DNA of 64,000 nt from a virus. The notes beneath the pieces are model-generated. The model saw only the letters and a program-made list of their open reading frames with translations. It did not search any database and was not told the DNA's origin. The translations under genes and the position numbers were made by a program. Shown one piece after another: positions 10,412-25,950 of the stretch (within the stretch, counting starts at the first letter, position 1; each line of letters begins with the position of its first letter). Location: positions 32,001 to 96,000 of the IMG/VR virus record IMGVR_UViG_3300045988_179268; one strand, given 5' to 3'.

Positions 10412-10510
10412 GGCTGTATTGCGCGCCCTTTGAAAGTTGTGGTATAGTTGGTGTATCCCCTGATTCGAGAGGGGCGCACCAACTATTTCCATTTCAATCA
10501 AGGAGGACAA

Positions 10511-10756
10511 ATGACCCCTAACGCAACCTATCATGACATTAAGACCCATCTGGCTAAGCCTAACGAAATCGAGGCTGTAACCAGCATTGAGGCAAGTAAT
10601 AAGGATTATGTAATTCAGAAGAACGCAAAGAACTTCCTTAAGTCCGGCAAGGAATACGTGAAGCTTTTTGAGGAAGTTCAGGAGAACATGGATAAGCTTA
10701 CCCCTGAGATGTGTGCTGAGATTAAGGCTATTATCGGTCTGGTTCGCGCTTTCTAG
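10511..10756 (+). CDS. Small hypothetical protein (81 aa)
   Basis: ATG preceded by CAAGGAGGACAA inside ORF 10448..10756. Confidence 0.4.
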   Translation: MTPNATYHDIKTHLAKPNEIEAVTSIEASNKDYVIQKNAKNFLKSGKEYVKLFEEVQENMDKLTPEMCAEIKAIIGLVRAF

Positions 10757-10833
10757 CATGGCTTGCCATTTGGTATAATTTTGAACGGGCACCAGTAGGT
10801 GTCCGTTCTTTCCGTCTTTAAAGGGGTTGTACC

Positions 10834-12093
10834 TTGTTCACTGTAGCTCATCTGTCAGACCTGCATCTAGGCTACCGCGATAACGCTTCGCTTAACCGAC
10901 TAGGGGTAGACCCCATTGATGGAGAACTTATTCCTGTTCGTGAGCTTGATGGGTATCTCGCGTGGGAGGAGGCTATTGATGGGATTATTGCTGACGAAGC
11001 AGATGCTGTAGTTATTGCGGGAGATATTGGTCATGAACCTAACCCGTCAAATCGTGCTAGACTTCACATGCAGTTGGGGTTAATGCGCCTCGCTGAGGCA
11101 GGAATCCCTGTCCACAATATTACGGGCAACCATGACACTAATGACGTTAAAGGGGACATTGCTTTTACAGCTTTGTTACATAGACCTGATGCAGGAATCT
11201 ATTCCCACGCAAATCCCTACCAGATGTATAAGCTGAACGACGACATTGCGTTACATATGGTGAGTCACCACATGTACACAGAGAATGTTGATGTCATGAA
11301 GCAGGTCAATCCAGTTAAGGGCGCTATCAACATTCTTACCACACATGGTTCTCTGATTGACCCGCTTCTCAAAGAGCGTATCCGTGTTAATGATACTGTG
11401 CGCGAAGTCGTCATCCCTGATTCTTTCCTTTATGCTGATTGGGATGCCATGATGCTTGGGCATATCCATGAGCGAGGTTTTGTTGGAGATGAGAGTAACG
11501 GTATCTTTTACAATGGTTCACTTATTAGGCGCGGCTTTTCTGACGCTAAGGGCGCTTTAGGGCGTGGCTACACGCTATGGCATATTGCCCCTGACGGGTC
11601 TGTGACCCGAGAGATGAAGTCCGTGAGGCAACGTCCACAGGAAGACCTACCGCCGATTTACGCCGAGGGGATGGACTCAGCAACTCTCACAGAGGCTATC
11701 CTTTCCAACCTCCCAGATTTAGCGGACGGCGTTGAGTATAACCAGGATGATGCACCTATCCTGCGTCAGAGGGTTTTTGGTGCCACGCCATCAGTTTTTG
11801 CTACCCGCGACCAAGCACTTATTGATGATGCCGCCCGTTTTGCGCTATCATATAATCTTGCGCCTCGCGCTTCTAAAGAAGAGAAACCCGATACATCTAC
11901 ATCTGAGGATGCTGTCGAAATTCCGCAGATTCAGACTGGAGGGCTAGGCGCTGTCTACAACTCATGGACAGAACGCTCTGAAACACTGAACAGTATTACA
12001 GACCCGGAAGTTCGACAGAGGGTCACTAGCCTAGCCGAGTCTTATTTGAAGCGCGGCGAGGAGCGTGTCTTCGAGAAGAGCGTTTCCAACTAA
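10834..12093 (+). CDS. sbcD: SbcD/Mre11-like nuclease (calcineurin-like phosphoesterase)
   Basis: HLSDLHLG, AGDIGHEP, GNHD, GHIHERG in canonical order. No adjacent SbcC/Rad50. Confidence 0.7.
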   Translation: MFTVAHLSDLHLGYRDNASLNRLGVDPIDGELIPVRELDGYLAWEEAIDGIIADEADAVVIAGDIGHEPNPSNRARLHMQLGLMRLAEAGIPVHNITGNHDTNDVKGDIAFTALLHRPDAGIYSHANPYQMYKLNDDIALHMVSHHMYTENVDVMKQVNPVKGAINILTTHGSLIDPLLKERIRVNDTVREVVIPDSFLYADWDAMMLGHIHERGFVGDESNGIFYNGSLIRRGFSDAKGALGRGYTLWHIAPDGSVTREMKSVRQRPQEDLPPIYAEGMDSATLTEAILSNLPDLADGVEYNQDDAPILRQRVFGATPSVFATRDQALIDDAARFALSYNLAPRASKEEKPDTSTSEDAVEIPQIQTGGLGAVYNSWTERSETLNSITDPEVRQRVTSLAESYLKRGEERVFEKSVSN

Positions 12094-12133
12094 CTTTATA
12101 ACCACTTAACATTTAACGAGGAGAATTAACTTT

Positions 12134-12973
12134 ATGGACAACTTTTTCGATTACCTATTCGAGGACTTCTATAGCCACCTGGAAGCCTCTACTCGCATTG
12201 CATTTGCGGGTGACTGGCATATGAATCTGGAGCGAGTGGACAAGGTTCTTGATAGAGTAGAACGAATGGGTGCAGATGTCGTTCTGCATGTTGGGGATTT
12301 TGGGTATTTCCCTGCCCTTGAAGACTATGACGCTTTCATTTCCAGGGTAACTGCCCGCGCCAAGCTTCATAATTATTTCATTGTTTTCATTGAGGGTAAC
12401 CATGAGCAGTACACTAATAGCCGGTACCCCCGCTGGCAGAGTGAGACTGTTCTGACACGTGATGGGTTGAACACGCTTCGCAATAAAGCAGATGAGAATG
12501 GTTTCGTCTTAGTATCGCCCCGTGTTCTGTGGGCGACTCGCGGAGCAACCGCAAAAATTGGAACCGCTGGGGGTAAGCGCGGTGTAAGCTTCATTGGATG
12601 TGGTGGCGCAGGAAGTATCAACCGTGAGTTTGAGCAGATGCGGCGCTTCTGGTCACCTGATGAGCGTGTCACCGCTGATGACGTAGCGGCTGTCAAGCGT
12701 GGCGCTGAGCGTCTGGATGGCATTGTGGACATTATGCTGACTCATGATGCCCCTAGCGGCGCACCTGTGCCCAAGAGTCGCATTAAAGGCTCCCTGGATA
12801 AGGTTCAGGCGCATGTCCTTAAGGAAGCAGAGGAGACTCGCAAGAACATTGCTGAGGCTGTCTCTGTCGCGAAACCCTCCGTGCTATTTCACGGGCATTG
12901 GCATGTGCGTAACAACGGAACTAATGTCCCTATCGACACTAATTCTGGTCGCACAGTAATCCCTTCGGTTTAG
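12134..12973 (+). CDS. Metallophosphoesterase
   Basis: FAGDWHMN, HVGDFG, EGNHE, LTHDAP, HGHWH motifs. Possible frameshifted 3' extension (see findings). Confidence 0.7.
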   Translation: MDNFFDYLFEDFYSHLEASTRIAFAGDWHMNLERVDKVLDRVERMGADVVLHVGDFGYFPALEDYDAFISRVTARAKLHNYFIVFIEGNHEQYTNSRYPRWQSETVLTRDGLNTLRNKADENGFVLVSPRVLWATRGATAKIGTAGGKRGVSFIGCGGAGSINREFEQMRRFWSPDERVTADDVAAVKRGAERLDGIVDIMLTHDAPSGAPVPKSRIKGSLDKVQAHVLKEAEETRKNIAEAVSVAKPSVLFHGHWHVRNNGTNVPIDTNSGRTVIPSV

Positions 12974-13122
12974 TCTCTTGGGGATGAGTTGCGTGCAGGA
13001 GACAACCTTTGTTTTACTGATACGCATCTGTGGGACTGCGATGCAGATGAGTTAAACAAGCGCCTTATTCAAGGCGATTTGTGGGTCTAATAATGGTAAT
13101 CTGAACTTTAAGGTTTTAAGCT

Positions 13123-13272
13123 ATGTCTCTTAAGAATATGTACGCTTATTTAGGTAAGCTTCTTTGCCGTGTTGGTGCTCACCATTGGGATGGTTGCGCT
13201 TTCGCTTACGCATCACAATGTGAGCGTTGCTTCAAACTATCGCCTGGTAGTGAGAAGCATTTTAAATCTTGA
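13123..13272 (+). CDS. Possible Cys/His-rich micro-protein (49 aa)
   Basis: ATG ORF MSLKNMYAYLGKLLCRVGAHHWDGCAFAYASQCERCFKLSPGSEKHFKS in an otherwise empty gap. Weak SD (AAGG). Confidence 0.25.
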   Translation: MSLKNMYAYLGKLLCRVGAHHWDGCAFAYASQCERCFKLSPGSEKHFKS

Positions 13273-13310
13273 TTTGTCAGACTTGACGTTGTTGAATAAA
13301 GGAAGTTTTT

Positions 13311-13865
13311 ATGTCTAAGCCACTTATCCCTGCTTTGCCGAAAAAGATTCGCCCTGATGAGGAGTTTGAATCACGTGCTTTACGTCAGTTCCACGATGTT
13401 TTTGGGCACCGAAACGGCTTCACTGACCCGCTGGACATGGATAGTTTGGAGGGGAAGAAAGAGCTTGTTCGACGCTTCAACTTCTTAGGTGAGGAGTTTG
13501 CGGAGCTTGGAGGGGCTATTTTTGATGAAGTTGATAGGCTGTTCCTTATGGCGGCTATTAACTTCGTCATTAGCCGTCACCGCGTCGAAGACCTAAAGGT
13601 GGATAAGGTGGAAGTTATTGACGCTTTGGGCGACATTCGTTATATTGACAGTGGTATGTTTGTATGCTTCGGCATTCCTCTAGAGTATGCCGCCCGTGAA
13701 ATCCATGCTTCCAATATGTCTAAATTAGGTTCAGATGGTAAGCCCATTTACAGGGAGGACGGTAAAATCCTCAAGGGTGAAAATTACGTCCCCCCGAACC
13801 TCGCGCCTTTACTAGAAGGCAAGACTACAGAGAACATGGAGAACTGGGTGACCGATGATGAGTAA
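13311..13865 (+). CDS. MazG-like nucleotide pyrophosphohydrolase
   Basis: EEFAELGGAI, DALGDIRYIDSG and HASNMSKLGSDGKPIYREDGKILKGENYVPP are typical of phage MazG-like proteins. Confidence 0.65.
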   Translation: MSKPLIPALPKKIRPDEEFESRALRQFHDVFGHRNGFTDPLDMDSLEGKKELVRRFNFLGEEFAELGGAIFDEVDRLFLMAAINFVISRHRVEDLKVDKVEVIDALGDIRYIDSGMFVCFGIPLEYAAREIHASNMSKLGSDGKPIYREDGKILKGENYVPPNLAPLLEGKTTENMENWVTDDE

Positions 13866-15069
13866 GTCTGGTAATGATTCACCCGTGGAGAGCGTTGATG
13901 CCTCTGAGGGGGTTAAGAAATCCTTTAAGGAGCGCCTGCTAAGCTTCGCAGGTAAAGCCAAGGGCGGAGCGGTTAGTTTCCTTGAGGGGTCTTATGGGCG
14001 TTTAGCACTGCCCGCTGTAAGCATTACGCTGTTCTTGTCTTTAATTTCCCCACTAATGCCAGGTATGGCTTGGTGGGCACCTTGGCTTTGGTTCTTCACG
14101 TCAGCGGGGTTCCTTTTCATACTGAGCCGTTCCATAGTAGTTATTAAAGTGTTAGTTACTTTAGCTATTATTGGCTATTGTATGGTGACAATGCACGATG
14201 TGGCTATTTATGCTTCACCGTATAGTGGCTGGGAGTTCTTTGCCGGGTTTTCACCGCTTCTTGGATTAGGAATATCTCTTACGTTGTCCATGTTTGGGAC
14301 TTACGGGATTTCCCGGTGGACTCATCAGCCTCTAGTGGCTATTTTGGCAACTACGGCGGGTGTTATTGTCACGGCGGCGACACTGAATCCTGCTTTGGGT
14401 GGAGCTGTCCTAATGGGCATTTCAGTTCTTACCTCATCCCTATGGTATAGGTATGGCATTAAGATGTTCTATTGGCGTTCTAAAATGCCTTTATTCGTCA
14501 AGCCGAAGCATCTTGAAGCCAAGCTTAAGCGGGAAGCGGCTATAATTAATGACCCGAAAAACAGTAAGACGAAGTATGACTCAGAGTGGTTCTACTACCC
14601 GTATGTAGCGCCTCGTAGTGGTGCGCCGTCACCTGTTTTCGTTATTGGCGACCGTGCTTATTTATTTTTCCCCGTTAGTCTTACAGCGCCTTTTGTTTTG
14701 GAAGAAAAGACGGGTCTTTTTGGGGATAAGGTGAAGTCACGTAAGCTGACGTATAAGGGGAAGCCTGTTGAGCCGTGGCTTTTTGATAAAGTGATTTCCA
14801 GGACACCTCCTGGTGTTATCCCTGTGCTTATGGATGTGCAGAATGCTTGTCCGCCGGATAAACGCAATATTACTTTAGCTATTCCTGATTCGCCTTTGAA
14901 CTCTGCCGGTGAACCTATCCGCTATCTTGAGGTTGGTATTATCAACGCCCGTGAGGTTAATAGTGCGGCAAAGGAACTTCATATCGTTAAACGTGCTGAA
15001 GCTATTTACCATTCGAAGCCGACTTTGGACGAAAAAACGCAGGCTCGTTTGAAGCGTTTAAAAATTTAA
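13855..15069 (+). CDS. Polytopic membrane protein with soluble C-terminal domain, unknown function
   Basis: Start overlaps the MazG stop. Multiple hydrophobic helices in the first ~200 aa. Confidence 0.6.
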   Translation: MMSKSGNDSPVESVDASEGVKKSFKERLLSFAGKAKGGAVSFLEGSYGRLALPAVSITLFLSLISPLMPGMAWWAPWLWFFTSAGFLFILSRSIVVIKVLVTLAIIGYCMVTMHDVAIYASPYSGWEFFAGFSPLLGLGISLTLSMFGTYGISRWTHQPLVAILATTAGVIVTAATLNPALGGAVLMGISVLTSSLWYRYGIKMFYWRSKMPLFVKPKHLEAKLKREAAIINDPKNSKTKYDSEWFYYPYVAPRSGAPSPVFVIGDRAYLFFPVSLTAPFVLEEKTGLFGDKVKSRKLTYKGKPVEPWLFDKVISRTPPGVIPVLMDVQNACPPDKRNITLAIPDSPLNSAGEPIRYLEVGIINAREVNSAAKELHIVKRAEAIYHSKPTLDEKTQARLKRLKI

Positions 15070-15249
15070 TACCCTTTTTCGCTTTGGTGCGGCACCAGAT
15101 GCATGTGCTATTATTGCTAATGTTGGAAGACATGGTACTACCTCCTTTCTTCTAGTGTTAAGTGATTAAGTGGTTAAGAGAGGGCACGTTCCATCATCTT
15201 TTGGGGCGTGTCCTCTCTTATGCTATCTGAGAGAGTATAGGACGATTAC

Positions 15250-16761
15250 TTGATTTCTCCTGAATCATTCGTGAACCTACATACCCACTCAACGTACTCG
15301 ACGTTGGATGGGTTTTCTAGCGTTAGTGAGTACATTAGTCGTGCCGTAGAGGTTGGACAGACCGCTTTAGGTATCACTGACCACGGCAATATGCATGGGA
15401 TTTATGAGCTAATTACTGGGTGCCAGAAAGCTGGGATTACACCTGTTCCAGGTTGCGAGTTTTATGTTGCGCCGCTGAATCCTGATGGTGCTAAGGTTCA
15501 GTCACCCGTTTACTATGGTGAGCCTGGCGCTGATGGTGATGTTTCAGGTAGAGGCAATTATTTGCATTTAACGATGTGGGCTGTCAATGATGAGGGTCTA
15601 CGTAACATGTTTGAGTTGCAGATGTTGGCTTCTTCCCCGGAGCATAAACGTGCAGGGTACCCACGTATTGATTTAGATATGATGCGTGAACATTCCGCAG
15701 GTGTTGTTGTCTCGACGGGCTGTCCGTCAGGTGAGATTTCCACCCGATTCCGCTTAGGTCAAGATGCTGAGGCATATAAGTATGCCGAAACTCTGGTTAG
15801 TATCTATGGGAAAGATAACGTGTTTGTCGAAGTTATGAACCATAACATGACTTCTGACCTTGAACGCGATTTGCTGATGAAGCAGATTAAACTGGCTGAG
15901 ACGCTAGGGTTAAGACTTTTAGCTACGAATGATTGCCATTATGCGCATCATTCTGATGCCCCGCATCATGAGGAGATGCTGGCTATTGGTACTGGTTCCA
16001 CTATGAATGATTTGCCTAAGGAACAAGGTGGGCGAAGGTTCTGCTTTGACGGTGACCAGTATTTCTTGAAGACTGCTGAACAGATGTTAGAGCTTTTCCC
16101 TGAGGATGTTTACCCTGGTGCTGTAACAAATACAGCAGTTCTGGCAGATATGGTGGAGGATTTCTCATTATTTGAGTACAGGTCTGACTTGCGACCCATC
16201 CCGCATATTCCAGCTGACGAAACAGAGGAAAGTTATCTGCGTAGAGTTGTCACGTCTCTTGCGTATGAGCAGTTCCACGATGATGAGGTGAAGTATCGGG
16301 CTGTACTTGATAGGGCGGCTAAAGAGCTTGATGTTCTAGCGTCAGCGAACTATTGCGGTTACATGCTTATTGTTGCTGAGTACGTGAATTGGTTCAGGGA
16401 TAGTTTCAGTGTTCGTAACAGCTCAGGCGACGTTGTGATGAGTGCTGTTGGTATTGCTCGTGGCTCGGCGGGCGGCTCTATTGTTGCTTATTTGTTGGGT
16501 ATTACAGATATTGACCCTATCGAGTACGGGTTGTTTTTTGAGCGTTTCATTTCGGCGGGACGTGTAGACCAGGCTGAAATTTCGGTAGGTGATGGCGCGT
16601 CTGTCGTCCTTCCAGTCTCGGAGAAGGTCAAAGTTCTTACCGAAGATGGGGTTGAGGTTGAGAAGTATATTCACCAGGTAGCAGAAGGTGACTGGGTTTT
16701 GGTTGAACCTGATACGCCTATCGGCAATATTTTTAGCAGTCCCGTTCCGGCTGAGGTCTAG
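15250..16761 (+). CDS. dnaE: DNA polymerase III alpha (DnaE), N-terminal piece: PHP domain and first part of palm
   Basis: FVNLHTHSTYSTLDG, ITDHGNMHG, GCEFY, GSAGGSIVAYLLGITDIDPIEYGLFFERFIS. Ends before the PDxDxDF catalytic motif, with a 65-aa non-DnaE tail. Confidence 0.85.
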   Translation: MISPESFVNLHTHSTYSTLDGFSSVSEYISRAVEVGQTALGITDHGNMHGIYELITGCQKAGITPVPGCEFYVAPLNPDGAKVQSPVYYGEPGADGDVSGRGNYLHLTMWAVNDEGLRNMFELQMLASSPEHKRAGYPRIDLDMMREHSAGVVVSTGCPSGEISTRFRLGQDAEAYKYAETLVSIYGKDNVFVEVMNHNMTSDLERDLLMKQIKLAETLGLRLLATNDCHYAHHSDAPHHEEMLAIGTGSTMNDLPKEQGGRRFCFDGDQYFLKTAEQMLELFPEDVYPGAVTNTAVLADMVEDFSLFEYRSDLRPIPHIPADETEESYLRRVVTSLAYEQFHDDEVKYRAVLDRAAKELDVLASANYCGYMLIVAEYVNWFRDSFSVRNSSGDVVMSAVGIARGSAGGSIVAYLLGITDIDPIEYGLFFERFISAGRVDQAEISVGDGASVVLPVSEKVKVLTEDGVEVEKYIHQVAEGDWVLVEPDTPIGNIFSSPVPAEV

Positions 16762-16782
16762 TTTTTAAAGGCGGTTTTAGGT

Positions 16783-18012
16783 ATGAGTGAAGAAGTTGTA
16801 GAAGAAGTTGCTGTTTCAGTTGTTGAGGAGGCAGATTCCGTTGAGCCTACTCAAGCTCAGCCCACAGAGTACGTTGAGTTTCACAGGAAATATCAGCCGC
16901 GTGTCTGGGATGACTTTATTGGGCAGGAGCATATTGTTGCGCCGTTAAAGCGTGACATTATCGAGAACCGCCGTGTCCAGGGTCGCCTATTTCGTGGCGC
17001 GGCTGGAACTGGTAAGTCTAGCATGGTGAAGGTTTTCACTAAGGCGATGAATTGTGAGGGTCGCCCTGCTGATTCTGCTGACCCGTGCCTTGTGTGTGAT
17101 TCGTGTGTCCGTTTTGATGCGGAGGAGAATGGCGGAATGTATTATTTCGTTGGTTCCGTCACAAGTGGTGTAGATGATGTTCGTGCTATCGTTAATGCTG
17201 GTCGTGTTAAGCAGATGATGAAAGCGCCATACATCATTATGGATGAGTGTCACGCTCTGTCGAAGTTTGCCTGGGATGCGTTTTTGGCATACCTGGAAAA
17301 TAAGGACGACATGGATAGTGTTCCTATTATTTTCTGTACCACGGAGGCGGGCGGCATTAAAGCCTCTATTTCAACCCGTGTCCAAGAGTATAAGTTCAGG
17401 AATATCCCTGTCCCTGTTTTGGAGCAGTATGTTAAGGATATTGCTAGGCGTGAGGGTGTGGAAATCACCGACAATGGTGCTTCTTGGTGTGCTCGTGCCG
17501 CCCAGGGTTCAGCCCGTGGCGCGCTAAAGCGTTTAGAAGAGTATCTGCGTAACCCTGACCTTTACTCTGTTGATGAGTCATTCGCCACAGTCCTCATGAG
17601 AGAGTTCATCCTTGGCGATGTACCTAAGCTTCATAAAGCTTTGGAGTCCGTCAAGCAGATTGACTCAGCCTTACGTGACGGCACAGAGCTTGCGATGAAC
17701 CAGCTGAGGCATTACATTGCGCGGCAGAATAAGGCTACGGTCAGTCTAGGAGATTTGCCTTTTGCCGACTTACCTAAGCAGAACGTAGGTTTGTCTATGA
17801 TGGAGCAGAATCTACCGTCTGATAAGGCAATGAAAGTACTTAAACTTATGGCAGAGACTTTCCACGGATTCTGGAATACTACCGACGAGAATATTATCTT
17901 CGAAATTCTTTGGCTAGACCTTACGGTAAGGATGCATGAACTGCTGGAAGATAGGCGCGCGAAGCAAAAAGAGCTTGAGCTACATCAGAATAATTCACAG
18001 GGGCGGAAGTAA
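16783..18012 (+). CDS. dnaX: DnaX (tau/gamma)-like AAA+ clamp-loader subunit
   Basis: FIGQEHIV, Walker A GAAGTGKSS, Zn module CLVCDSCVRF, Walker B IIMDECHAL, SRVQEYKF sensor. Confidence 0.75.
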   Translation: MSEEVVEEVAVSVVEEADSVEPTQAQPTEYVEFHRKYQPRVWDDFIGQEHIVAPLKRDIIENRRVQGRLFRGAAGTGKSSMVKVFTKAMNCEGRPADSADPCLVCDSCVRFDAEENGGMYYFVGSVTSGVDDVRAIVNAGRVKQMMKAPYIIMDECHALSKFAWDAFLAYLENKDDMDSVPIIFCTTEAGGIKASISTRVQEYKFRNIPVPVLEQYVKDIARREGVEITDNGASWCARAAQGSARGALKRLEEYLRNPDLYSVDESFATVLMREFILGDVPKLHKALESVKQIDSALRDGTELAMNQLRHYIARQNKATVSLGDLPFADLPKQNVGLSMMEQNLPSDKAMKVLKLMAETFHGFWNTTDENIIFEILWLDLTVRMHELLEDRRAKQKELELHQNNSQGRK

Positions 18013-18015
18013 TTC

Positions 18016-20730
18016 ATGGGGACTATTGAGAAACGTATTATTGACGGCAAGACATATGTTCGCGTGGCGGGGAATAAAGTTGTTCAGCCTGGTTCGCCAC
18101 CAGATATTGATACAGACTTCCATACAGCCCATAGGGACGCGGCGTTTGAGCATGTAGCTCAGCTGTATGGGGCTGACCATTCTGCGCGTCTGCCTACTAA
18201 CCAGATGCTTAAAACACGCGCGTCTATCAAAGATGGTGCGCGAGTGTATGGTGTGCCGCCTGCGCAGGCTAACTATGTGACGAGTCTTTTGCCAGATAGT
18301 CTAGGCGTTACCTTCGCTAAGGTGTATGACCCTGAGAGTGACGAGTTTGCGGGTGCTGAGCGTTTCCGTGAAGCTGTCAGCACGCCTTTCTGGGAGAAGC
18401 CTCTAGCTTGTGCTAAAGCTCTTGAGGGGCGTATCCGTGGTCGAGGTGTTCACGCTTGCGGACTTCTGATTTCCTCTAGTCCGCTACAGCATCATGTTCC
18501 CGTTGATACTGCTAAGGATGGCACTGTCGTTGCGGGGTTTGAATATGGTGCCTGCGAGAGCATGGGGCTGATTAAGTTTGACTTCTTAGGGCTGGATACT
18601 GTCGATATTCTTTGCGATGCGGCACGTCTAGCAGTGCAAGCCGGGAAAGATGTGCCTGACTTCCGTAAGATGGTTCGAGAAAGCCGCTTTGATGACGCTG
18701 AGACGTTCCGCTTACTGGGTAAGGGCGATACGGTTGGCATCTTCCAGCTAGGCAACTCTGCTGTTGCTGACCTTTTCACGAAGTTCACCCCTAGCACGCT
18801 GGGTGACATTTCAGCTATTACGGCACTTTATCGCCCTGGGCCAATGAGTGCTGGTAGCCATATCCAGTATGTTGAGCGTCGGGCTGGGCGTGAGGAGATT
18901 AAGCCGATTCATGCTGATTTTGTAGGTTCGCCATTAGATAGCATTCTTGCTGACACTAGTGGTCTGCTGGTTTATCAGGAGCAGGTAATGTCAATTGCCT
19001 CGCTTATCGCCGGTATGACCCCTCAAGAAGGTGACGACTTGCGTCGCGCTATCGGTAAGAAGAAGCACGATTTGATGCTTGCATACGCTGAGCGGTTCAT
19101 TGAGGGTGGCGCGGGTAACGGGTATAGCCGAGAAGCTATGCAGGCGTTGTGGGACAGAATTGTCGGATTCGCTGAGTACGGGTTCAATAAATCGCACTCT
19201 GACGCTTACGCGGCAATGGCTTACCTGGCGTTATACATGAAGGCGCATTTTCCAGCTGAATTTTATGCGGCGGCGATTGCCCGCAAGGTGTCAATGGGTT
19301 CATCTGGCAGAGATAAAGTTCAGGAACTCATTGAGGACGCTAAACGTCGAGGCGTTCGACTTGATGTACCTGACGTTAATTTCTCTAGCGCTGACATTGG
19401 TCTAAACGGTGACGGTAACCTTGCGTTTGGATTCTCAATGCTTAAAGGTGTTGGCTCTAAGGATGCTGAGGTTATTGTTTCTGAGCGTGAGAGGGCTGGA
19501 CTGTACTCAAGTTTCAAGGACTTCGTTGTTCGTAGCTTCAACGCAGGCAAGGTCACTAAAACAACGTATGAGGGGTTAGCTAAGGCTGGCGCTTTTGATG
19601 TGTTCGGTCTTTCTCGCAAAGCCGTCTTGGAAGCAATTCCGGGGTATTTAGATTTACTACGAAAAGAGAGGGCTAAGCTTAGGAGGCAGGCGCTAAAGCT
19701 GGCTAAGGAAACAGGCGTTGAGCCGTCCCCTGATGCTGAGCTTGTCTCTGGCGAATCGTTGCCGGAAGATGAAGCGTTAAGTCGAGATGATTATCCGCTG
19801 GTTGAGCGTCTGCGCCATGAAGCTGAGGTTGCTGGGCAGTATATGACGGGTCATCCGATGGCATCTGTGCCCGAGAGGGTACCTGTGATGCGTGGTTGTA
19901 CTGTGAGTGAGCTTATGGCTTCGGAACAGCCGGTGAAGGGTGCGGTAGTGATGGCGGCTATCGTTGCGTTGGATGACAAGACGCATAAGAAGTTTGGGCG
20001 TAAGGTCATTGCCACTTTGGATGATGGTACGGGCGTTATTGCTGGGTATGTTTCTAATAGCCTTCTTGCGCGGGAGGACTTGTGGGTTGCTGAGCAGAAT
20101 ATTAAGAGTGCTTATATTAATGGTGATGCGATTGATTCGTCTGATGCTTCTAAGGTTGATGCCGCGAATATTCAATCCAGCCCTAAGCTACAGCCGTACC
20201 ACGTCTATTCGCTACATGTGAACTACACCCCGGCGCGTAAGATTGTAAATGATGATGGGGAGGTTAATTACCGTCCACCATATTTGAACATTTTGCACGC
20301 CCGACAGGTTCCGTTGTCTGCTTCGGGAGATATGTGCGCCCGGCTAAGGGTCGATATTTCACGCGGCGGCTCTATGGGGGATGTTGTGAGTAAGTTGCGT
20401 GAAATTGTGGGCGGGCTTCATTCCGCTGATTCCACCCGCCACGTTCCGCTGATGGTTGCGCTTTATGACTCGTCAAAGCCGGGGTGTGGCGTGGACTTGC
20501 CCAGCAAGTTCCTTTATGCGGCGCGTGAGGGCACCTCTAAGGGAGTTTCATGGTCAGATTTGCCTGTTGCTCCAATGGAAGCTTCTACGGCGGCTATGCG
20601 AGATTTAGTGGATAAGATGGATTATGTGGAAGTGCCCATGCGGGTTCCTTTCATGAATGCCACGCGGAATACTTTAGTGAAAGTTTTCGGGGAGGGTTCA
20701 TTTGATTGGGGTCATTTCCTGGTTTCTTAA
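18016..20730 (+). CDS. dnaE: DNA polymerase III alpha (DnaE), C-terminal piece: catalytic aspartates, fingers, HhH, OB region
   Basis: PPDIDTDF 27 aa after the start, LIKFDFLGL, ALYRPGPM, EYGFNKSHSDAYA. ATG lies 3 nt after the dnaX stop. Confidence 0.85.
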   Translation: MGTIEKRIIDGKTYVRVAGNKVVQPGSPPDIDTDFHTAHRDAAFEHVAQLYGADHSARLPTNQMLKTRASIKDGARVYGVPPAQANYVTSLLPDSLGVTFAKVYDPESDEFAGAERFREAVSTPFWEKPLACAKALEGRIRGRGVHACGLLISSSPLQHHVPVDTAKDGTVVAGFEYGACESMGLIKFDFLGLDTVDILCDAARLAVQAGKDVPDFRKMVRESRFDDAETFRLLGKGDTVGIFQLGNSAVADLFTKFTPSTLGDISAITALYRPGPMSAGSHIQYVERRAGREEIKPIHADFVGSPLDSILADTSGLLVYQEQVMSIASLIAGMTPQEGDDLRRAIGKKKHDLMLAYAERFIEGGAGNGYSREAMQALWDRIVGFAEYGFNKSHSDAYAAMAYLALYMKAHFPAEFYAAAIARKVSMGSSGRDKVQELIEDAKRRGVRLDVPDVNFSSADIGLNGDGNLAFGFSMLKGVGSKDAEVIVSERERAGLYSSFKDFVVRSFNAGKVTKTTYEGLAKAGAFDVFGLSRKAVLEAIPGYLDLLRKERAKLRRQALKLAKETGVEPSPDAELVSGESLPEDEALSRDDYPLVERLRHEAEVAGQYMTGHPMASVPERVPVMRGCTVSELMASEQPVKGAVVMAAIVALDDKTHKKFGRKVIATLDDGTGVIAGYVSNSLLAREDLWVAEQNIKSAYINGDAIDSSDASKVDAANIQSSPKLQPYHVYSLHVNYTPARKIVNDDGEVNYRPPYLNILHARQVPLSASGDMCARLRVDISRGGSMGDVVSKLREIVGGLHSADSTRHVPLMVALYDSSKPGCGVDLPSKFLYAAREGTSKGVSWSDLPVAPMEASTAAMRDLVDKMDYVEVPMRVPFMNATRNTLVKVFGEGSFDWGHFLVS

Positions 20731-20750
20731 ACCAGCGGTTTAATCCCTAG

Positions 20751-20789
20751 AAGAGGGGTGTGTAGCTATATTTTCTATACACCCCTCTT
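20751..20789 (+). terminator. Hairpin after dnaE C-piece
   Basis: AAGAGGGGTGTGTAG / CTATACACCCCTCTT, 15 bp with one mismatch. Confidence 0.55.
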
Positions 20790-20833
20790 GTTTCATGTGA
20801 TGCCTATCAATTTTACTGAAAGTTGGTCATTCT

Positions 20834-22216
20834 ATGGCTATCCGCCTTTCGAAGCTTCAAGCTTCCACAGTCGTTCCAGTTCCACCACCAACAACTAACC
20901 CTGATTCCTCTGACGCTATTGATGTAAATGATTTTCCAGTAATTAGTGAAGATAGCGTACCCACTGATACTAGGGAACAGGAAACAGCGGCAAGCGCTTC
21001 CTCGCGCGAATCAGCGTTAGGGGACGCTATATTAGCGAGCCTACAAGGTGACAACTCTCAATTTGGGGTATTTGAAGACTATATTTCAGAGGACGATACA
21101 GAACCTTCATCTGATACTGATTCTTGGGAAGAAGACGAGGAAGACGATGAGTACTACTACTTATCACCTAGTGAACGTGCCGCTTCATCTGTAGCCGAAA
21201 GCTTTAGCCCTGATGATGAAGAGGGAATTGTTAGCTCCGAGATACCCTCAGAAGACGCTTTTTTCGACAGCCTATATGATGAATCTGACTTTGAAGATGA
21301 CGTAGATGAAACTGCTACAGATGACTCTCCTAGCATGGATGATGATTCCATGCTAGGCGACTTCGACATGCCTAGCATCGACGACATTGAACGTGATGAG
21401 GATGATGCATATGTCTTACGTGATGCTAAAGGGGCATATTTCCCGTGGGTGACCGAGTTCTTAGTTAATCTTCCTGAACTGGACGCTATGAATAACCTCC
21501 AGCCAGACGATTACGACTTATGGGAGAAGCTACATGAAGGTGACGAGGACGAAGAGGGTGAAGATTTATCCGACGAGCAAGCACCAACAGCAACTTCCGC
21601 TAGTAGCGCACCAGTAGCTCCTGCGCAGATTGGCGCAGATGAAGATGTTAAAGGCTCACGGAAGCAGGCAAAAGGCGGTATCGCCGCTTTTGCTTTACGT
21701 GCATTAGATGCTGTTGCAGGCGTACTGCACAAGGGTAGCAAAATCCCTATAATTGGGAAGCTCTTCAATAAGGCTATCCCTGGAACCCCTACTGGTCGAG
21801 GTATGGCTGGAGTCGCTATTGCGCTTATTCTGTTCCTTTTGGGAGGTTTCATTAATGGTCAAATCACTGGCGATAGGGTGTTCACCCCATCTGGTACATC
21901 TTCCGTAGAACTTGCAGACAATGGCAAAGTTTCGGTAGCAGGAATTAGCCGCAAAGACGGCGCTTATTACGCGATGGTGAAGAATGAAGGCGCAACTAAT
22001 GCTAACCGTGTTTATGGTTCAGTTCATGCGGCAGGTTCAGAGGCTTATAACCCTATTAGTTGGTTCAATAAAGCTGATTTAGGCACTTGTACGTTTAGGG
22101 TAGATTCTCTTAAGGTGGGTGCTGAGACGCAGGCACCTCTCACCTGTGAAGGCGATGTTTCGGGTAAGGGGTCAATGTCCTTTACTGATTTGATTGTAGA
22201 AAGCGAGGAAGTTTAG
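20834..22216 (+). CDS. Single-pass membrane protein with highly acidic ~270-aa N-terminal region
   Basis: Long D/E-rich tracts, TM MAGVAIALILFLLGGFINGQI, ~120-aa C-terminal domain. Confidence 0.55.
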   Translation: MAIRLSKLQASTVVPVPPPTTNPDSSDAIDVNDFPVISEDSVPTDTREQETAASASSRESALGDAILASLQGDNSQFGVFEDYISEDDTEPSSDTDSWEEDEEDDEYYYLSPSERAASSVAESFSPDDEEGIVSSEIPSEDAFFDSLYDESDFEDDVDETATDDSPSMDDDSMLGDFDMPSIDDIERDEDDAYVLRDAKGAYFPWVTEFLVNLPELDAMNNLQPDDYDLWEKLHEGDEDEEGEDLSDEQAPTATSASSAPVAPAQIGADEDVKGSRKQAKGGIAAFALRALDAVAGVLHKGSKIPIIGKLFNKAIPGTPTGRGMAGVAIALILFLLGGFINGQITGDRVFTPSGTSSVELADNGKVSVAGISRKDGAYYAMVKNEGATNANRVYGSVHAAGSEAYNPISWFNKADLGTCTFRVDSLKVGAETQAPLTCEGDVSGKGSMSFTDLIVESEEV

Positions 22217-22220
22217 GACG

Positions 22221-23354
22221 ATGCCGATTAGTTTTGAGGAGGCTTTTGCCGCGTATGAGAAGCCTTATGTTGAAGAGTCCACTATTGACCCTGGTTTAGT
22301 TCCGAGTGAGAACCCTGAACTGTACGCGCCACTTCTTATGCCGCCTGAGGGTTATTTTGACCATATTGGGGCTACTCGCGCTAGGCGCGCTAAGGAACGT
22401 GTTGATACGGTAGTGGAGCATCTTAAGACTGTCCCACCTGGCGTTGATTTGTCTAAGCCGGGCGCGAAGGCGGCAATTCGAACCTTTGGGGTGCCTGCAA
22501 CCAGTCTATATAACACTCTGGAGTTCCCCCCTAAGGGGTGGGATAAATCAGCTTCTAGTACTAAGAAGGTTAAAGCTGGTATTGAGGGTGAGGAGCTGAC
22601 TGCTAAAGCTTTAGCTCAGTGGGCTGACGACAAGCCGGACGTAGTGATTTGTCATTCTGTCTCGATTCCCCGGAAGGAGGGGGATAACGTAACTTCCGAG
22701 ATTGAGGTTGTTGCTGAGAACGAGGAGACGCAGGAAGAGCTGGAAGAAGAACGCAAGAGTATCACCGGCATTGATGATGAGCTGGGGGTGGTGGACTCGC
22801 CTGACACCGACCATGTTGTCGTTGTAGGTTCTCAGGTGTGGATTATTGACTCAAAAATGTGGAAAGCGGGGATTGACCTGAATGACCCGCGCGCCGTATA
22901 TTCGTTTAAGAAGAAGAGCCAAAAAACTGGCAAGAGCAACTACTCTATAGTTGTTCCTGGGCAGAAGTATCCACGATATGTTCGCATGAAGCAGGCAATG
23001 TATTTGTGGCAGAAGTATATTGGCGGCAGGAAACGCGGGTATGTGCGCGGTATTGTGAACATCCACCCTAAAGAGGTTAAGAACCCTGGTTACAGTAAGC
23101 TTAACCCGGAAGAGCCGGAGTACATTCCGGGCGCGATTCGTTTCTTGCGTGTTGATGAGTGGCATGAGTCTGAGTTTAAGCCTACGGACGCTGACAGGTT
23201 CATTAAGCTATTGGACTCTTTCTATAACGAGATGTCGCCATCCGAGAAAGGGTACATAGACGTTGGCTTAGTGACGCTGGTTGCCCGCACACCCGTCAAG
23301 AAAAGGACTCGTGCTAGTGAGTTCTTCGGGAACAAATTGAACGGCTTCCAGTAG
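22221..23354 (+). CDS. NERD (nuclease-related domain)-like protein
   Basis: GEELTAKAL...VICHSVSIP...DTDHVVVVGSQVWIIDSKMWKAG fits the NERD pattern (DH-hydrophobic strand-D/E-x-K). Confidence 0.5.
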   Translation: MPISFEEAFAAYEKPYVEESTIDPGLVPSENPELYAPLLMPPEGYFDHIGATRARRAKERVDTVVEHLKTVPPGVDLSKPGAKAAIRTFGVPATSLYNTLEFPPKGWDKSASSTKKVKAGIEGEELTAKALAQWADDKPDVVICHSVSIPRKEGDNVTSEIEVVAENEETQEELEEERKSITGIDDELGVVDSPDTDHVVVVGSQVWIIDSKMWKAGIDLNDPRAVYSFKKKSQKTGKSNYSIVVPGQKYPRYVRMKQAMYLWQKYIGGRKRGYVRGIVNIHPKEVKNPGYSKLNPEEPEYIPGAIRFLRVDEWHESEFKPTDADRFIKLLDSFYNEMSPSEKGYIDVGLVTLVARTPVKKRTRASEFFGNKLNGFQ

Positions 23355-23416
23355 CAGGCACTTTCTGCTATGGGTTTTAAGATAGTTTCATTACATATTT
23401 TGAGGAGAATTTACCG

Positions 23417-24118
23417 ATGAGTCTTTACGCGCCGATTCGTAACGAGGCGAAGTATGAGAATGTCCGCAACTGGTTACAGAAGAATTTCAGCTTCATTGCT
23501 GAGGGCTCCCCGGAAGGGTTCTTGCAGGCTTCGGAGTGGATGGGTCTTCGCGGTAATCCTGACCTAAAGAAGGAGGATAGCCTTATTTCGCAGGCTGTCC
23601 GCAAGGTTCCTAACGCTTTCATCAACGTTGAGTGGGTTCCTAATATTTCTTCTTTCCAGGTGAAGTCTGCTGACATGGTTCATGTGGATTCTATGCTTGA
23701 GACTTTGGCTCTGGTTGAGGAGCAGGCACGTCAGGTTCGCCTTATCCTGGAGTTGCAGGATATTTTGCGTGAGTATGAGCCGTCGTCTGCTTGGTTCATT
23801 ACTGAGGTTAATGAGAAGAAGGCTCAGGGCTTTGGTTATAGTTCTTCTCGTGCCCGCTACCACCTGTACACTGCTGGTGATTTACCTGAGGGTGAGAATG
23901 ATGTGACGAATGTTGCACCTAAGCAGTTGGCTTCTTTGGGTAAGTCTGTTGCTGAGGTGTATATTGAGGCTTTGCAGGCTTACAACCCGGAACTTGTTCA
24001 GGAAGATACCCGATTTGAGGGTTTGAAGGGCTATTACTTGCATGTTAATCAGATTCTAGACATTAAGTTCCCCTCGCTGGGCGATAGGGCTGAACTTATC
24101 GCTTCTCTGCTTGACTAA
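23417..24118 (+). CDS. Hypothetical protein (233 aa)
   Basis: ATG after GAGGAG; no recognised motif. Confidence 0.5.
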   Translation: MSLYAPIRNEAKYENVRNWLQKNFSFIAEGSPEGFLQASEWMGLRGNPDLKKEDSLISQAVRKVPNAFINVEWVPNISSFQVKSADMVHVDSMLETLALVEEQARQVRLILELQDILREYEPSSAWFITEVNEKKAQGFGYSSSRARYHLYTAGDLPEGENDVTNVAPKQLASLGKSVAEVYIEALQAYNPELVQEDTRFEGLKGYYLHVNQILDIKFPSLGDRAELIASLLD

Positions 24119-24135
24119 CCCTTTAACTTTTAATT

Positions 24136-24180
24136 AAAGTGGTGGGAGACAGTATTTCATTTATTGTCTCCCACCACTTT
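24136..24180 (+). terminator. Hairpin terminator
   Basis: Perfect 16-bp inverted repeat AAAGTGGTGGGAGACA / TGTCTCCCACCACTTT. Confidence 0.7.
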
Positions 24181-24221
24181 TCTTTATCCAGTGGGCGCAA
24201 GAACTTTTTAAGGACCAACCC

Positions 24222-24704
24222 ATGACTTCAAACTCACCACGCTCTAACTGCCCGAACAACAATAATGGCGTACATGTTGTAACGCACAACACTCCTCTTC
24301 CAAGCAACTTTGTTTTTCAGAGTATTATGAACCCGGAAGCATGGCGTTTCCTCGGTATCGACATTGATAAGGTAGAGAAGGCGACTTATCAGCCTGCGTC
24401 TACAGGCAAGTTTGAGGTGAGTGAAGATGACCTTAAGGTTCTTCGTTTCGCTCAGGATACGATGATGCAACGTTATAAGTTGATGGAAGCTTGCGATGTC
24501 GATGAGTATGCTGATGTACCAACTTCGGAGCTTGCGGATGGTAAGTATACTACTGTCAGACTGTGTGTGCCTTCTGGTTGGCTTTTGCAGGCTCAGGATG
24601 TTGAACTCGTGGAGGGCTCCCGTGAGGATGAAGCCATTAAAATCATTGCCTCTATCGGTAGGCTAGGCGATTCAGCGGGTATAGACCTCATCCTTGCACC
24701 TTAA
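24222..24704 (+). pseudogene. FtsK/SpoIIIE-like fragment, copy A (N-proximal part of motor domain, truncated)
   Basis: Paralogous to 24933..25925 (VVTHNTPLPSNFVFQSIMNPEAWRFLGIDIDKVE, LRFAQDTMMQRYKLME, IGRLGDSAGIDLILAP*). Stops where the conserved QRP motif should follow. Confidence 0.5.
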
Positions 24705-24761
24705 ATAATGTAATTGAACCTGCATTAGTTTACCCACTATTTAGCTACACATCTTTGCTAT

Positions 24762-24797
24762 GGGTGTGGTGACGGCAAAAATGCCGTCACCACACCC
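24762..24797 (+). terminator. Intrinsic terminator
   Basis: GGGTGTGGTGACGGCA-AAAA-TGCCGTCACCACACCC followed by a T-rich run. Confidence 0.75.
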
Positions 24798-24932
24798 ATT
24801 TTCTTTTTCCCTCTTCCTTTTTGAAATGACGGTGACCATACATCTATGTGCCACTAAAACATCTGGAAGTCTCAGGGTGTGAAATGAACTGATTTATGGA
24901 TTATTACACGCCCTGAACTTGGCGGAGGTTTT

Positions 24933-25925: not shown

Positions 25926-25950
25926 CGTAACTTAAAAGGTTTTTGTTTGA

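What the first reader, a model, noticed from the sequence alone, without database searches (positions are those of the whole stretch)
16564..18096. Junction peptides of the split DnaE look like a decayed split Hint/intein pair lacking catalytic residues
- The N piece ends with 65 non-DnaE residues (16564..16758): VDQAEISVGDGASVVLPVSEKVKVLTEDGVEVEKYIHQVAEGDWVLVEPDTPIGNIFSSPVPAEV.
- The C piece starts with 27 non-DnaE residues (18016..18096): MGTIEKRIIDGKTYVRVAGNKVVQPGS.
- Both are beta-strand-like. The pattern xISxGDG...VLTEDG...I..V.EGD.VLV resembles N-terminal Hint-fold segments.
- The leader MxxIxxRxxxGKxxV..xG resembles the start of C-inteins such as the cyanobacterial DnaE one, as I recall that sequence.
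- The catalytic positions are absent: no Cys/Ser at position 1, no TxxH block, no terminal His-Asn.
- The intervening dnaX gene sits where a homing-endonuclease domain would sit in a full intein.
- Hypothesis: a former intein has been reduced to a non-splicing heterodimerisation module that holds the two polymerase chains together.
Basis: inference. Interest (0 to 1): 0.7.

Follow-up and report, generated by a model that had tools for sequence, protein, structure and literature searches.

The report
Dead intein remnant bridging split polymerase
The two odd peptides at the break in this giant phage's split replicative DNA polymerase are two halves of one small conserved domain that looks like a shrunken, catalytically dead intein, which probably clips the two protein chains together without splicing them.

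Summary
ORF 15250..16761 (PHP plus first half of the palm) and ORF 18016..20730 (rest of DnaE) are split between FERFISAGR and PPDIDTDF, the catalytic Asp motif. A clamp-loader gene lies between them.

- **One domain.** The 65-aa tail and 27-aa head form a single domain. Over 300 metagenomic huge-phage homologs carry the same tail. At least 14 unsplit relatives carry tail and head fused as a 54-64-aa insert at the same site. Bacterial and actinophage DnaE lack it.
- **Fold.** Two AlphaFold models, the window's tail plus head and a natural unsplit insert, gave Foldseek top lists made up almost entirely of inteins and Hedgehog Hint domains (prob 0.97-1.0, TM 0.5-0.65 on query length). E-values were only 0.0015-0.1.
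- **Sequence.** Similarity to inteins is weak (hhalign P about 2e-4). It maps the tail to the block-B lobe and the window's head to block F.
- **Split site.** The gene break falls at the canonical split-intein site.
- **Chemistry.** All splicing residues are absent: Gly/Val at position 1, SxxK in place of TxxH, Pro-Gly in place of His-Asn.
- **Extent.** Only about half a Hint fold remains.

Likely function: non-covalent strand complementation that reassembles the palm. This is inferred and was not tested here.

The parts
15250..16761 (+). DnaE N piece (503 aa): PHP domain, first half of the palm, then the tail
   Evidence: PF02811 at residues 10-198; PF07733 positions 2-104 at residues 329-444
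16537..16563 (+). FERFISAGR, the last canonical DnaE residues before the insert
   Evidence: aligns with FERFLNPER of bacterial and actinophage DnaE, which continue directly with (V/I)SMPDIDxDF
16564..16710 (+). Conserved core of the tail (VDQAE...GDWVLVEP, 49 aa): five predicted beta strands, matching the block-B lobe of a Hint fold
   Evidence: conserved in the family; pLDDT 88-95; hhalign aligns it to intein positions 49-92
16711..16758 (+). Lineage-specific C-terminal extension of the tail (DTPIGNIFSSPVPAEV), in the position of a linker
   Evidence: not conserved outside the closest relatives; lower pLDDT; relatives have acidic extensions here
16783..18012 (+). Clamp-loader (DnaX/RFC-like AAA+) gene lying between the two polymerase pieces
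   Evidence: PF13177, phrog_5846; it follows the N piece in every split IMG/VR locus examined
18016..18066 (+). First part of the head (MGTIEKRIIDGKTYVRV): a beta hairpin found only in the window's sub-lineage, aligning with the block-F start of C-inteins
   Evidence: hhalign to intein positions 108-131, P = 0.057
18067..18096 (+). Family-wide last strand of the insert (AGNKVVQPG) plus the conserved Ser at the position of the intein +1 residue
   Evidence: x-V-V-x-P-G-S is conserved in split and unsplit members
18097..18120 (+). PPDIDTDF: resumption of DnaE, catalytic aspartate motif of the palm
   Evidence: identity of the catalytic Asp residues from my own knowledge of E. coli Pol III alpha (D401/D403)
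18016..20730 (+). DnaE C piece (904 aa): second half of the palm, then fingers and HhH domains

Best explanation
The tail of the N piece and the head of the C piece are two fragments of one small beta-rich domain. The domain is inserted in the DnaE palm three residues upstream of the catalytic DxD motif.

It is most likely the shrunken, catalytically dead remnant of a mini-intein. What remains is the block-B lobe and the final strand(s) of the Hint fold. The block-A lobe and every splicing residue are gone.

In an ancestor the remnant became a permanent part of the polymerase, and unsplit relatives still carry it in one piece. Several lineages, including this huge-phage clade, then underwent gene fission in the loop that corresponds to the canonical split-intein / homing-endonuclease site. 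In the window's lineage the clamp-loader gene now sits in that gap.

The two chains are translated separately and are not ligated. The head strand(s) are proposed to dock onto the five-stranded tail by strand complementation, as split-intein halves do. Together with the palm interface, this would bring the NTP-binding half (GRGS...FERF) and the Mg-binding half (PDIDTDF) into one active site.

- **Shown:** the split; conservation of the peptides; contiguity of the domain in relatives; absence of catalytic residues; a predicted fold that is Hint-like.
- **Inferred:** intein ancestry; non-covalent assembly through this module.
For: **Split and conservation**
- The break lies at FERFISAGR | ...PGS-PPDIDTDF.
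- The tail is conserved in all of the ~120 listed N-piece homologs, out of 323 hits, from contigs up to 727 kb.
- The last head strand is conserved in about 55 C pieces.

**One contiguous domain**
- Tail and head are fused as a 54-64-aa insert in unsplit relatives: P0225, P0227, P0229, P0240, P0242, P0251, P0336, P0341, P0346, P0349, P0356, P0365-P0367.
- DnaE without the insert reads FERFLNPERVSMPDIDxDF.

**Structure**
- Model 1 (window tail plus head): insert core pLDDT 88-95; the pLDDT block covering head residues 91-100 averages 94.
- Model 2 (natural unsplit P0227 insert, correctly aligned MSA): mean pLDDT 79, with six strands.
- Foldseek against PDB: about 24 of the top 35 hits for model 1 and the top 19 for model 2 are inteins or Hedgehog Hint. 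Examples are RadA 4e2u (TMq 0.60, rmsd 3.3 A over 69 columns, prob 1.00), TFIIB, PolII, CDC21, DnaB and 1at0.
- Foldseek against BFVD: hits are intein-bearing terminases, RNR and polymerases, plus entries named 'Hint module'. TMq is 0.55-0.65 and rmsd about 2 A over about 62 columns.
- Tudor hits have prob below 0.1. Hfq hits have prob 0.08-0.14 for model 1 and 0.35-0.63 for model 2, at rmsd 8-11 A in both. P-type ATPase A-domain hits have prob mostly below 0.25 (0.47 for the isolated CopA A-domain 2hc8).

**Sequence**
- hhalign of the insert profile against eight inteins gives P = 1.7e-4 to 6.6e-4. The register is always the same: insert 3-48 to intein 49-92. The invariant Ser falls on the block-B Thr and a Lys on the block-B His.
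- hmmsearch of the tail profile against PDB sequences puts the Pab PolII intein (E 0.022) and the gp41-1 intein (E 0.15) at the top.
- The window's head aligns co-linearly to intein positions 108-131. The break therefore falls where natural split inteins are split.

**Context**
- This DnaE family is prone to inteins. Bona fide inteins sit at four other sites.
- Adjacent, translationally coupled pieces in relatives show that the fission is real and has happened in more than one genomic arrangement.
Against: **Statistics are modest**
- No Foldseek hit reaches E <= 0.001 (best 0.0015).
- hhalign probabilities are 27-50%.
- A more diverse profile (A9) found no intein among PDB sequences.

**Incomplete fold**
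- Only about half of a Hint fold is present (TM normalised on the target is about 0.3).
- The block-A lobe is absent.

**Competing sequence match**
- The first hairpin matches Tudor-like repeats as well as or better than inteins. hhalign gives P = 4.6e-6 over 19 columns, and 34 of 71 tails hit Pfam PF21743 below its threshold.

**Evolutionary pattern**
- No homolog with a working intein at this exact site was found.
- The insert is fixed and vertically inherited, unlike typical inteins.

**Limits of the models**
- Both structures are predictions.
- The MSA of model 1 misaligned one strand.
- The two chains were modelled as a fused chain, not as a complex.
Confidence: 0.6

Rival explanations
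1. The insert is a conserved small beta domain of independent origin, for example an SH3/Tudor-like or other hairpin-rich module. It was inserted in the palm and merely resembles part of a Hint fold. The gene later split in one of its loops. It may still hold the chains together, but it has no intein ancestry.
For: - Sequence matches to Tudor-like families on the first hairpin.
- Weak E-values for all intein matches.
- Only half a Hint fold is present.
- The insert is fixed in the clade.
- No active intein was seen at this site.
Against: - The Tudor matches cover 19-23 residues only. They correspond to the C-terminal end of the Tudor profile but to the N-terminal end of the insert, and they fall below the Pfam thresholds.
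- Foldseek ranks Hint domains first in two libraries for two independent models. Tudor hits have prob below 0.1; Hfq hits have prob at most about 0.6 at rmsd 8-11 A.
- The alignment is co-linear with the intein blocks B and F, with SxxK on TxxH.
- The break lies at the canonical split site.
- The insertion point is the kind of catalytic-site position that inteins favour.
Confidence: 0.27
2. The junction peptides are an active, non-canonical split intein. It ligates the two chains into one full-length DnaE.
For: - Split arrangement at a conserved catalytic site.
- Hint-like fold.
- A Ser at the +1 position.
Against: - Position 1 is Val here and Gly in nearly all relatives.
- There is no Cys in block F or in the head that could support class-3 chemistry.
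- The residues before the +1 Ser are Pro-Gly, not His-Asn.
- Block B is SxxK or SEKV, not TxxH.
- The block-A lobe is missing.
- Unsplit relatives keep the insert permanently in frame.
Confidence: 0.03
3. The peptides do not mediate assembly. The large palm interface alone holds the chains together. The insert or its free ends serve another role, such as contacting the clamp loader, SSB partners or DNA.
For: - The insert is also conserved in unsplit enzymes, where no dimerisation is needed.
- Conserved polar residues Ser, Tyr, His and Gln are present.
- Some tails end in long acidic extensions with an SSB-like ...D-x-IPF tip.
- The clamp-loader gene is linked to the locus.
Against: - The head strand is predicted with high confidence as part of the same sheet as the tail.
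- All fissions seen fall in one loop of this domain, not elsewhere in the palm.
- This role is not exclusive of the main explanation.
Confidence: 0.1

Closest known systems
Naturally split DnaE inteins of cyanobacteria (Ssp/Npu DnaE)
   Same: A DnaE polymerase is encoded as two genes. The N piece ends and the C piece begins with Hint-fold fragments. The break falls at the same place within the Hint fold. The window's head aligns with the start of the Npu C-intein.
   Different: The host-protein site differs (from memory, the cyanobacterial site lies far downstream of the DxD motif). All catalytic residues and the whole block-A lobe are missing here, so no ligation is expected. The remnant is 60-90 aa against about 137 aa.
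'Fractured genes': split inteins with a free-standing gene between the halves (Dassa et al. 2009, PMC2677866)
   Same: A phage or metagenomic replication gene is broken inside an intein, and another gene lies between the two halves.
   Different: There the intervening gene is a homing endonuclease and the inteins carry the splicing motifs. Here it is a clamp loader (or nothing, or several genes) and the Hint remnant is dead.
Split minimal Pol III alpha of group 2.2 jumbo phages (Iyer et al. 2021, PMC7824862)
   Same: Pol III alpha is split into an NTP-binding N part and a Mg/DNA-binding C part, encoded by separate genes in very large phages.
   Different: That enzyme is a minimal version without PHP and its genes lie far apart. 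No Hint-like junction module is described in the passages I searched.
Degenerate or domesticated Hint domains (HO endonuclease described as a degenerated intein, bioRxiv 10.1101/2020.01.20.913210; Hedgehog Hint)
   Same: A Hint fold is kept after canonical protein splicing has been lost.
   Different: Those keep a complete Hint fold and have an enzymatic or processing role. Here half a fold survives as a structural insert and fission point.
Split family-B polymerases of archaea (Methanothermobacter without an intein; Nanoarchaeum with a split intein) - from memory
   Same: A replicative polymerase is split at an intein insertion site. One lineage has a split intein and another has none.
   Different: The polymerase family is different. 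The intein-less case is not reported to retain a Hint remnant.

Membership tests
Intein (Hint-fold protein-splicing element) | Complete Hint fold (about 130 aa or more, two pseudo-symmetric lobes) | tested here: not met
   The insert is 54-64 aa in most members and about 90 aa in the window. Foldseek aligns 60-98 columns to inteins of 125-185 aa (TMq 0.5-0.65, TMt about 0.3). Only part of the fold is present.
Intein (Hint-fold protein-splicing element) | Fold-level similarity to Hint domains | tested here: met
   Inteins and Hedgehog Hint dominate the top Foldseek hits for two models in PDB and BFVD (prob 0.97-1.0). E-values are only 0.0015-0.1.
Intein (Hint-fold protein-splicing element) | Block A: Cys/Ser/Thr (or class-specific Ala) at position 1 | tested here: not met
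   Val in the window and Gly in almost all relatives. One unsplit member has Cys.
Intein (Hint-fold protein-splicing element) | Block B TxxH | tested here: not met
   An invariant Ser aligns with the Thr. The His position is Lys in most members and Val in the window (SEKV).
Intein (Hint-fold protein-splicing element) | Block G: C-terminal His-Asn (or Gln/Asp) | tested here: not met
   The insert ends in Pro-Gly (or Ala-Gly, Ser-Gly) before the Ser.
Intein (Hint-fold protein-splicing element) | Nucleophile (Cys/Ser/Thr) at +1 of the C-extein | tested here: met
   Ser is conserved (PGS|PPDID). The same Ser is conserved in insert-free DnaE (VSMPD), so this is not diagnostic.
Intein (Hint-fold protein-splicing element) | Insertion at a highly conserved functional site of the host protein | tested here: met
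   Three residues upstream of the catalytic PDxDxDF motif.
Intein (Hint-fold protein-splicing element) | Sporadic distribution among orthologs (mobile element) | tested here: not met
   The insert is present in every member of the clade and absent outside it.
Intein (Hint-fold protein-splicing element) | Protein-splicing activity | not testable with these tools
   Needs expression and mass spectrometry. The chemistry looks impossible from the residues present.
Naturally split intein | Host gene in two ORFs, broken between blocks B and F of the Hint domain | tested here: met
   Tail aligns to intein 49-92 and head to intein 108-131. The Npu and gp41-1 N/C boundary falls in the same gap.
Naturally split intein | High-affinity association of the N and C fragments | tested here: inconclusive
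   Fused-chain AlphaFold models place the head strands with pLDDT up to 94. No two-chain prediction or experiment was done.
Tudor / SH3-like barrel | Full-length match to a Tudor profile or fold | tested here: not met
   Pfam Tudor families match residues 3-25 only and fall below their gathering scores. Foldseek Tudor hits have prob below 0.1.
DnaE (Pol III alpha, PF07733) | PHP, palm with GS and DxD motifs, fingers, HhH | tested here: met
   All are present, distributed over the two ORFs.

The most novel reading that the evidence does not exclude
A whole clade of huge phages builds its replicative polymerase from two chains. The chains would be joined only by a catalytically dead half-intein, in effect a natural 'split intein without splicing'. 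It would have been fixed as a structural insert next to the active site and then reused, more than once, as a ready-made fission and assembly point. A bolder variant: the 54-64-aa unit is a free-standing example of the single pseudo-symmetric half from which the Hint fold is thought to have arisen by duplication.
Probability: 0.4. Interest if true: 0.75.

Novelty: new variant of a known kind. Interest (0 to 1): 0.62.

Why it matters
Inteins are usually seen either as active selfish elements or as elements that are cleanly lost. If this reading is right, it documents a third fate. The intein decays in place, is kept for a very long time as part of an essential enzyme, and makes the host gene easy to split because its two halves still find each other.

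- It would explain how a replicative polymerase can be cut right beside its catalytic aspartates and still work.
- It would give a natural, very small (about 50 + 10 aa) non-covalent pairing tag derived from a split intein.
- It would offer a marker for a large, uncultured group of phages with genomes of roughly 260-730 kb.
- It also raises the question of what the insert does in the unsplit enzymes.

Tried and rejected
**Searches with the window's own peptides**
- The single window peptides against Pfam and PDB sequences gave nothing useful.
- Megablast of the locus and tblastn of the tail or insert against GenBank phages found no relative carrying the insert. The nearest cultured phages are actinophages with unsplit, insert-free DnaE at 38% identity or less.

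**Protein searches**
- A chimeric N-end + C-start query, meant to catch unsplit relatives, missed the C pieces altogether. They were recovered by querying the whole C piece.
- An exhaustive profile search with the tail found the domain only in DnaE N pieces and unsplit DnaE. The other hits were spurious repeat proteins with a Tudor-like hairpin. No intermediate with intein motifs turned up.
- The diverse profile A9 against PDB sequences gave no intein hit.

**Structure prediction**
- One MAFFT alignment (A6) was discarded for misalignment. The same flaw affects one strand of A4, the MSA used for model 1.

**Alternative readings considered and rejected**
- Read-through or recoding. The three ORFs share a frame, but TAG is a normal stop here, and relatives use other frames.
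- Assembly artefact or pseudogene. Clusters of 111 and 126 member sequences and many independent contigs rule this out.
- Tudor or SH3 identity.

**Phylogeny**
- The NJ tree is crude and has no support values. It was used only to show that split and unsplit forms are interleaved.

Full report
**1. The observation**

The window holds three consecutive genes on the + strand:
- 15250..16761, 503 aa
- 16783..18012, 409 aa
- 18016..20730, 904 aa

Pfam finds PHP plus positions 2-104 of the Pol III alpha catalytic profile (PF07733) in the first gene. It finds positions 100-260 of the same profile, plus the fingers and HhH domains, in the third. The middle gene is a clamp-loader-type AAA+ protein.

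The break lies between FERFISAGR and PPDIDTDF. Insert-free DnaE reads FERFLNPER-(V/I)SM-PDIDxDF. The 65 residues after GR and the roughly 26 residues before S-P-PDID are therefore foreign to DnaE, at exactly the coordinates given. The window's single peptides match nothing in Pfam or among PDB sequences.

**2. The peptides are conserved, and the family is large and uncultured**

A protein search with the N piece returned 323 hits. The ~120 listed are N pieces of about 480-515 aa, many from contigs of 200-730 kb. Every one examined ends in a homologous tail. The consensus is GRG-aTYrItYDDGTtEEiiVSxxKxV...dG....KYIHQLxvGDxV. One Ser is invariant, and a Gly, a Tyr and a His are nearly invariant.

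The window's own proteins occur unchanged on contigs of about 320 kb.

The gene order N piece, clamp loader, C piece recurs in contigs of 266 kb and 343 kb and in IMG/VR viral contigs. Variations exist:
- One 698-kb contig has five genes between the pieces.
- In several contigs the C piece is not within 10 kb downstream.
- In smaller-genome relatives the two pieces abut or overlap, with a Shine-Dalgarno sequence inside the last tail codons.

No GenBank phage in the collection searched carries the insert. The nearest cultured phages have ordinary unsplit DnaE.

**3. Head peptides**

Most C pieces begin with only about 13 foreign residues, M..KKIKSIEVVKPG-S, which is one beta strand. The window's sub-lineage (P0157, P0189-P0194) has an extra hairpin, ekRvidGKtYVRv, in front of that strand.

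**4. Tail and head are one domain**

The C-piece search also returned full-length proteins of about 1,250-1,640 aa from phage-like contigs. In these, tail and head are fused with a short turn.

An example is P0227: FERFLSPGR-GSLYQIEYVSGEVEEIPVSSKKRIYAADESDNKVVYVHELNPGDMVNYKGGKEVIEKVFVKIPG-SAPDIDTDFH.

The exhaustive profile search added eight more. The insert is thus a contiguous domain of 54-64 aa. In split members it is broken in the loop between the GDxV strand and the last strand.

In a rough neighbour-joining tree, all insert-bearing enzymes form one clade apart from bacterial DnaE. Unsplit forms sit on the deeper branches and are interleaved with split ones. The huge-phage clade that includes the window is uniformly split. 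This fits an unsplit ancestor with several fissions. The tree has no support values, so re-fusion cannot be excluded.

**5. What fold is it?**

Two AlphaFold2 models were made.

| | Model 1 | Model 2 |
|---|---|---|
| Sequence | Window tail plus head with short flanks | Natural unsplit P0227 insert |
| MSA | A4; one strand of the other rows was misaligned | A8; checked alignment |
| Confidence | Insert core pLDDT 88-95; head residues 91-100 average 94 | Mean pLDDT 79 |
| Strands | Five in the tail, three in the head | Six |

Foldseek results:
- Against PDB, model 1: about 24 of the top 35 hits are inteins or Hedgehog Hint domains.
- Against PDB, model 2: the top 19 hits are all inteins or Hedgehog Hint domains. 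They have prob 0.97-1.00 and TM 0.48-0.60 on query length, at rmsd 3.1-5.1 A over 60-82 columns.
- Against BFVD, the top hits are intein-bearing terminases, ribonucleotide reductase and polymerases, and entries named 'Hint module' or 'Intein C-terminal splicing region'. They superpose at about 2 A over about 62 columns.
- Tudor hits have prob below 0.1. Hfq hits have prob 0.08-0.14 for model 1 and 0.35-0.63 for model 2, at rmsd 8-11 A in both. P-type ATPase A-domain hits have prob mostly below 0.25 (0.47 for the isolated CopA A-domain 2hc8).
- No hit reaches E <= 0.001.
- TM normalised on the target is about 0.3, so the insert equals roughly half of a Hint domain.

**6. Sequence-level tests**

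- A profile of 71 tails against PDB sequences ranks the Pab PolII intein first (E 0.022, intein residues 78-120) and the gp41-1 intein second (E 0.15).
- hhalign against eight inteins gives P = 6.6e-4 (tails) and P = 1.7e-4 (whole insert). The register is always the same, insert 3-48 to intein 49-92. The invariant Ser falls on the block-B Thr and a Lys on the block-B His.
- The long heads of the window's lineage align to intein positions 108-131, the start of block F, with P = 0.057.
- The two alignments are co-linear and leave a gap where natural split inteins (Npu, gp41-1) are split and where homing endonucleases insert.

Against this:
- A more diverse profile found no intein among PDB sequences.
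- The first hairpin matches Tudor-like repeats at least as well (P = 4.6e-6, but over 19 columns only). That hairpin is the C-terminal end of the Tudor profile and the N-terminal end of the insert. I read this as a shared hairpin motif, not a shared domain.

**7. Splicing chemistry**

- Position 1 is Val in the window and Gly in nearly all relatives.
- Block B is SxxK (SEKV in the window).
- The insert ends in Pro-Gly.
- The heads contain no Cys that could act as a block-F nucleophile.
- Only the +1 Ser remains, and that Ser is conserved in all DnaE.
- The block-A lobe is absent.

Unsplit relatives keep the insert in frame. Splicing is therefore very unlikely, and the window's polymerase should exist as two chains.

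**8. Context that favours an intein origin**

The insertion point, beside the catalytic aspartates, is typical of inteins. This DnaE family is also intein-prone. Canonical inteins (Cys1 ... His-Asn | Ser/Cys) occur at four other sites, one of them only about 33 residues upstream of the junction. Those proteins still carry the same tail.

**9. Most likely mechanism**

An intein that entered at GR|S decayed to a half-Hint remnant and became a fixed part of the palm. Its two ends lie close together, as intein termini must, so the palm stays intact. The loop at the former endonuclease / split site tolerates breakage. The strand(s) after the loop can re-dock onto the five-stranded tail, as split-intein fragments do.

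Fission happened there, by a stop plus restart in the simplest cases. In the huge-phage clade the clamp-loader gene came to lie in the gap.

Shown:
- the split
- conservation of the peptides
- contiguity of the domain in relatives
- loss of the catalytic residues
- a predicted Hint-like fold

Inferred:
- intein ancestry (my estimate: about 0.6)
- strand-complementation assembly
- the order of events

The function of the insert in unsplit enzymes is unknown. The conserved Ser / Tyr-x-His-Gln residues suggest it is more than a passive scar.

**10. Comparison with what is known**

The closest systems are:
- the cyanobacterial split DnaE inteins
- the 'fractured genes' with split inteins around a free-standing endonuclease gene (PMC2677866)
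- the split minimal Pol III alpha of T4-like jumbo phages, which is cut between the same two subdomains (PMC7824862)
- degenerate Hint domains such as HO

Full-text searches found no description of a dead intein remnant serving as the junction of a split polymerase. It fails the membership test for an intein in four respects: chemistry, the complete fold, the block-A lobe and mobility. It resembles a split intein in fold fragment, split position and, presumably, fragment association.

**Verdict**

I rate it a new variant of a known kind, of moderate to high interest, pending a two-chain structure or biochemistry.

Noticed in passing
window 1..43751, + strand genes: All real genes end in TAA (23) or TAG (12). 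None ends in TGA, although the TGA trinucleotide is common in the window (1,367 occurrences) and never interrupts the long ORFs. This may reflect a host or phage in which TGA is not a normal stop.
   Followed up: partly
window 15250, 16783, 18016: The N piece, the clamp loader and the C piece are all in the same reading frame. They are separated by TAG plus 7 codons and by TAA plus 1 codon. Relatives such as L004 use different frames, and TAG is a normal stop here, so this is probably coincidence rather than read-through.
   Followed up: partly
P0045, P0058, P0068, P0089, P0117 (N-piece homologs, C-termini): Some tails continue into 60-100-aa acidic extensions ending in ...SELDSIPF, DLSLIPF, DIASVPF, ELADIPF or DLDRIPF. 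This is reminiscent of the SSB C-terminal tip (DDDIPF, from memory). Such a free C-terminus is possible only because the gene is split.
   Followed up: no
L041:7960-8025, L042:7950-8010, L043:7980-8025: In smaller-genome relatives the two DnaE pieces abut or overlap by up to 20 nt. A Shine-Dalgarno-like GAGGAGG / AAGGAG sequence is encoded by the acidic last codons of the tail. This is simple fission with translational coupling and no intervening gene.
   Followed up: partly
P0018, P0022, P0052, P0067, P0075, P0093, P0100, P0119, P0120; P0184, P0199, P0208, P0218, P0232, P0239, P0251 and others: Canonical inteins, some with endonuclease domains, sit at four other sites of this phage DnaE family. 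The sites are N-piece residue ~405 (GRG|S) and C-piece residues ~146-155, ~319 and ~392-401 in window numbering.
   Followed up: partly
P0307, P0308, P0309, P0310 (2,000-2,500 aa): Giant repeat proteins with 18-28 copies of a Tudor-like unit (GDRVEARYKGGSKYYKGKISRVNADGSYNIDYDDGDKERRVASSKVRKL) are hit by the tail profile through one hairpin. They are unrelated to the finding, but they explain the Pfam Tudor matches.
   Followed up: partly
L002:8687-14590 (698-kb contig): Between the N and C pieces lie an unknown gene, an NAD-dependent epimerase, a DAO-family oxidoreductase, the clamp loader and a DUF4379 protein. The gap between the pieces therefore accumulates cargo genes.
   Followed up: no
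window 42000..44000: GC and AT skew switch sign sharply at about 42-44 kb. This coincides with the change from + strand to - strand genes and marks a divergent or convergent transcription boundary.
   Followed up: no
window 10834..15069: Upstream of the polymerase are two metallophosphatase (Mre11-like) genes, a MazG/PRA-PH-like gene and a predicted membrane protein. The same neighbours occur in relatives at 50% identity (L001, L002, L004), so this replication module is conserved.
   Followed up: no
window 20834..22216: The 460-aa ORF directly after the C piece has a very acidic, Ser/Asp/Glu-rich N-terminal half and a hydrophobic segment. It has no Pfam hit in the relative L001.
   Followed up: no
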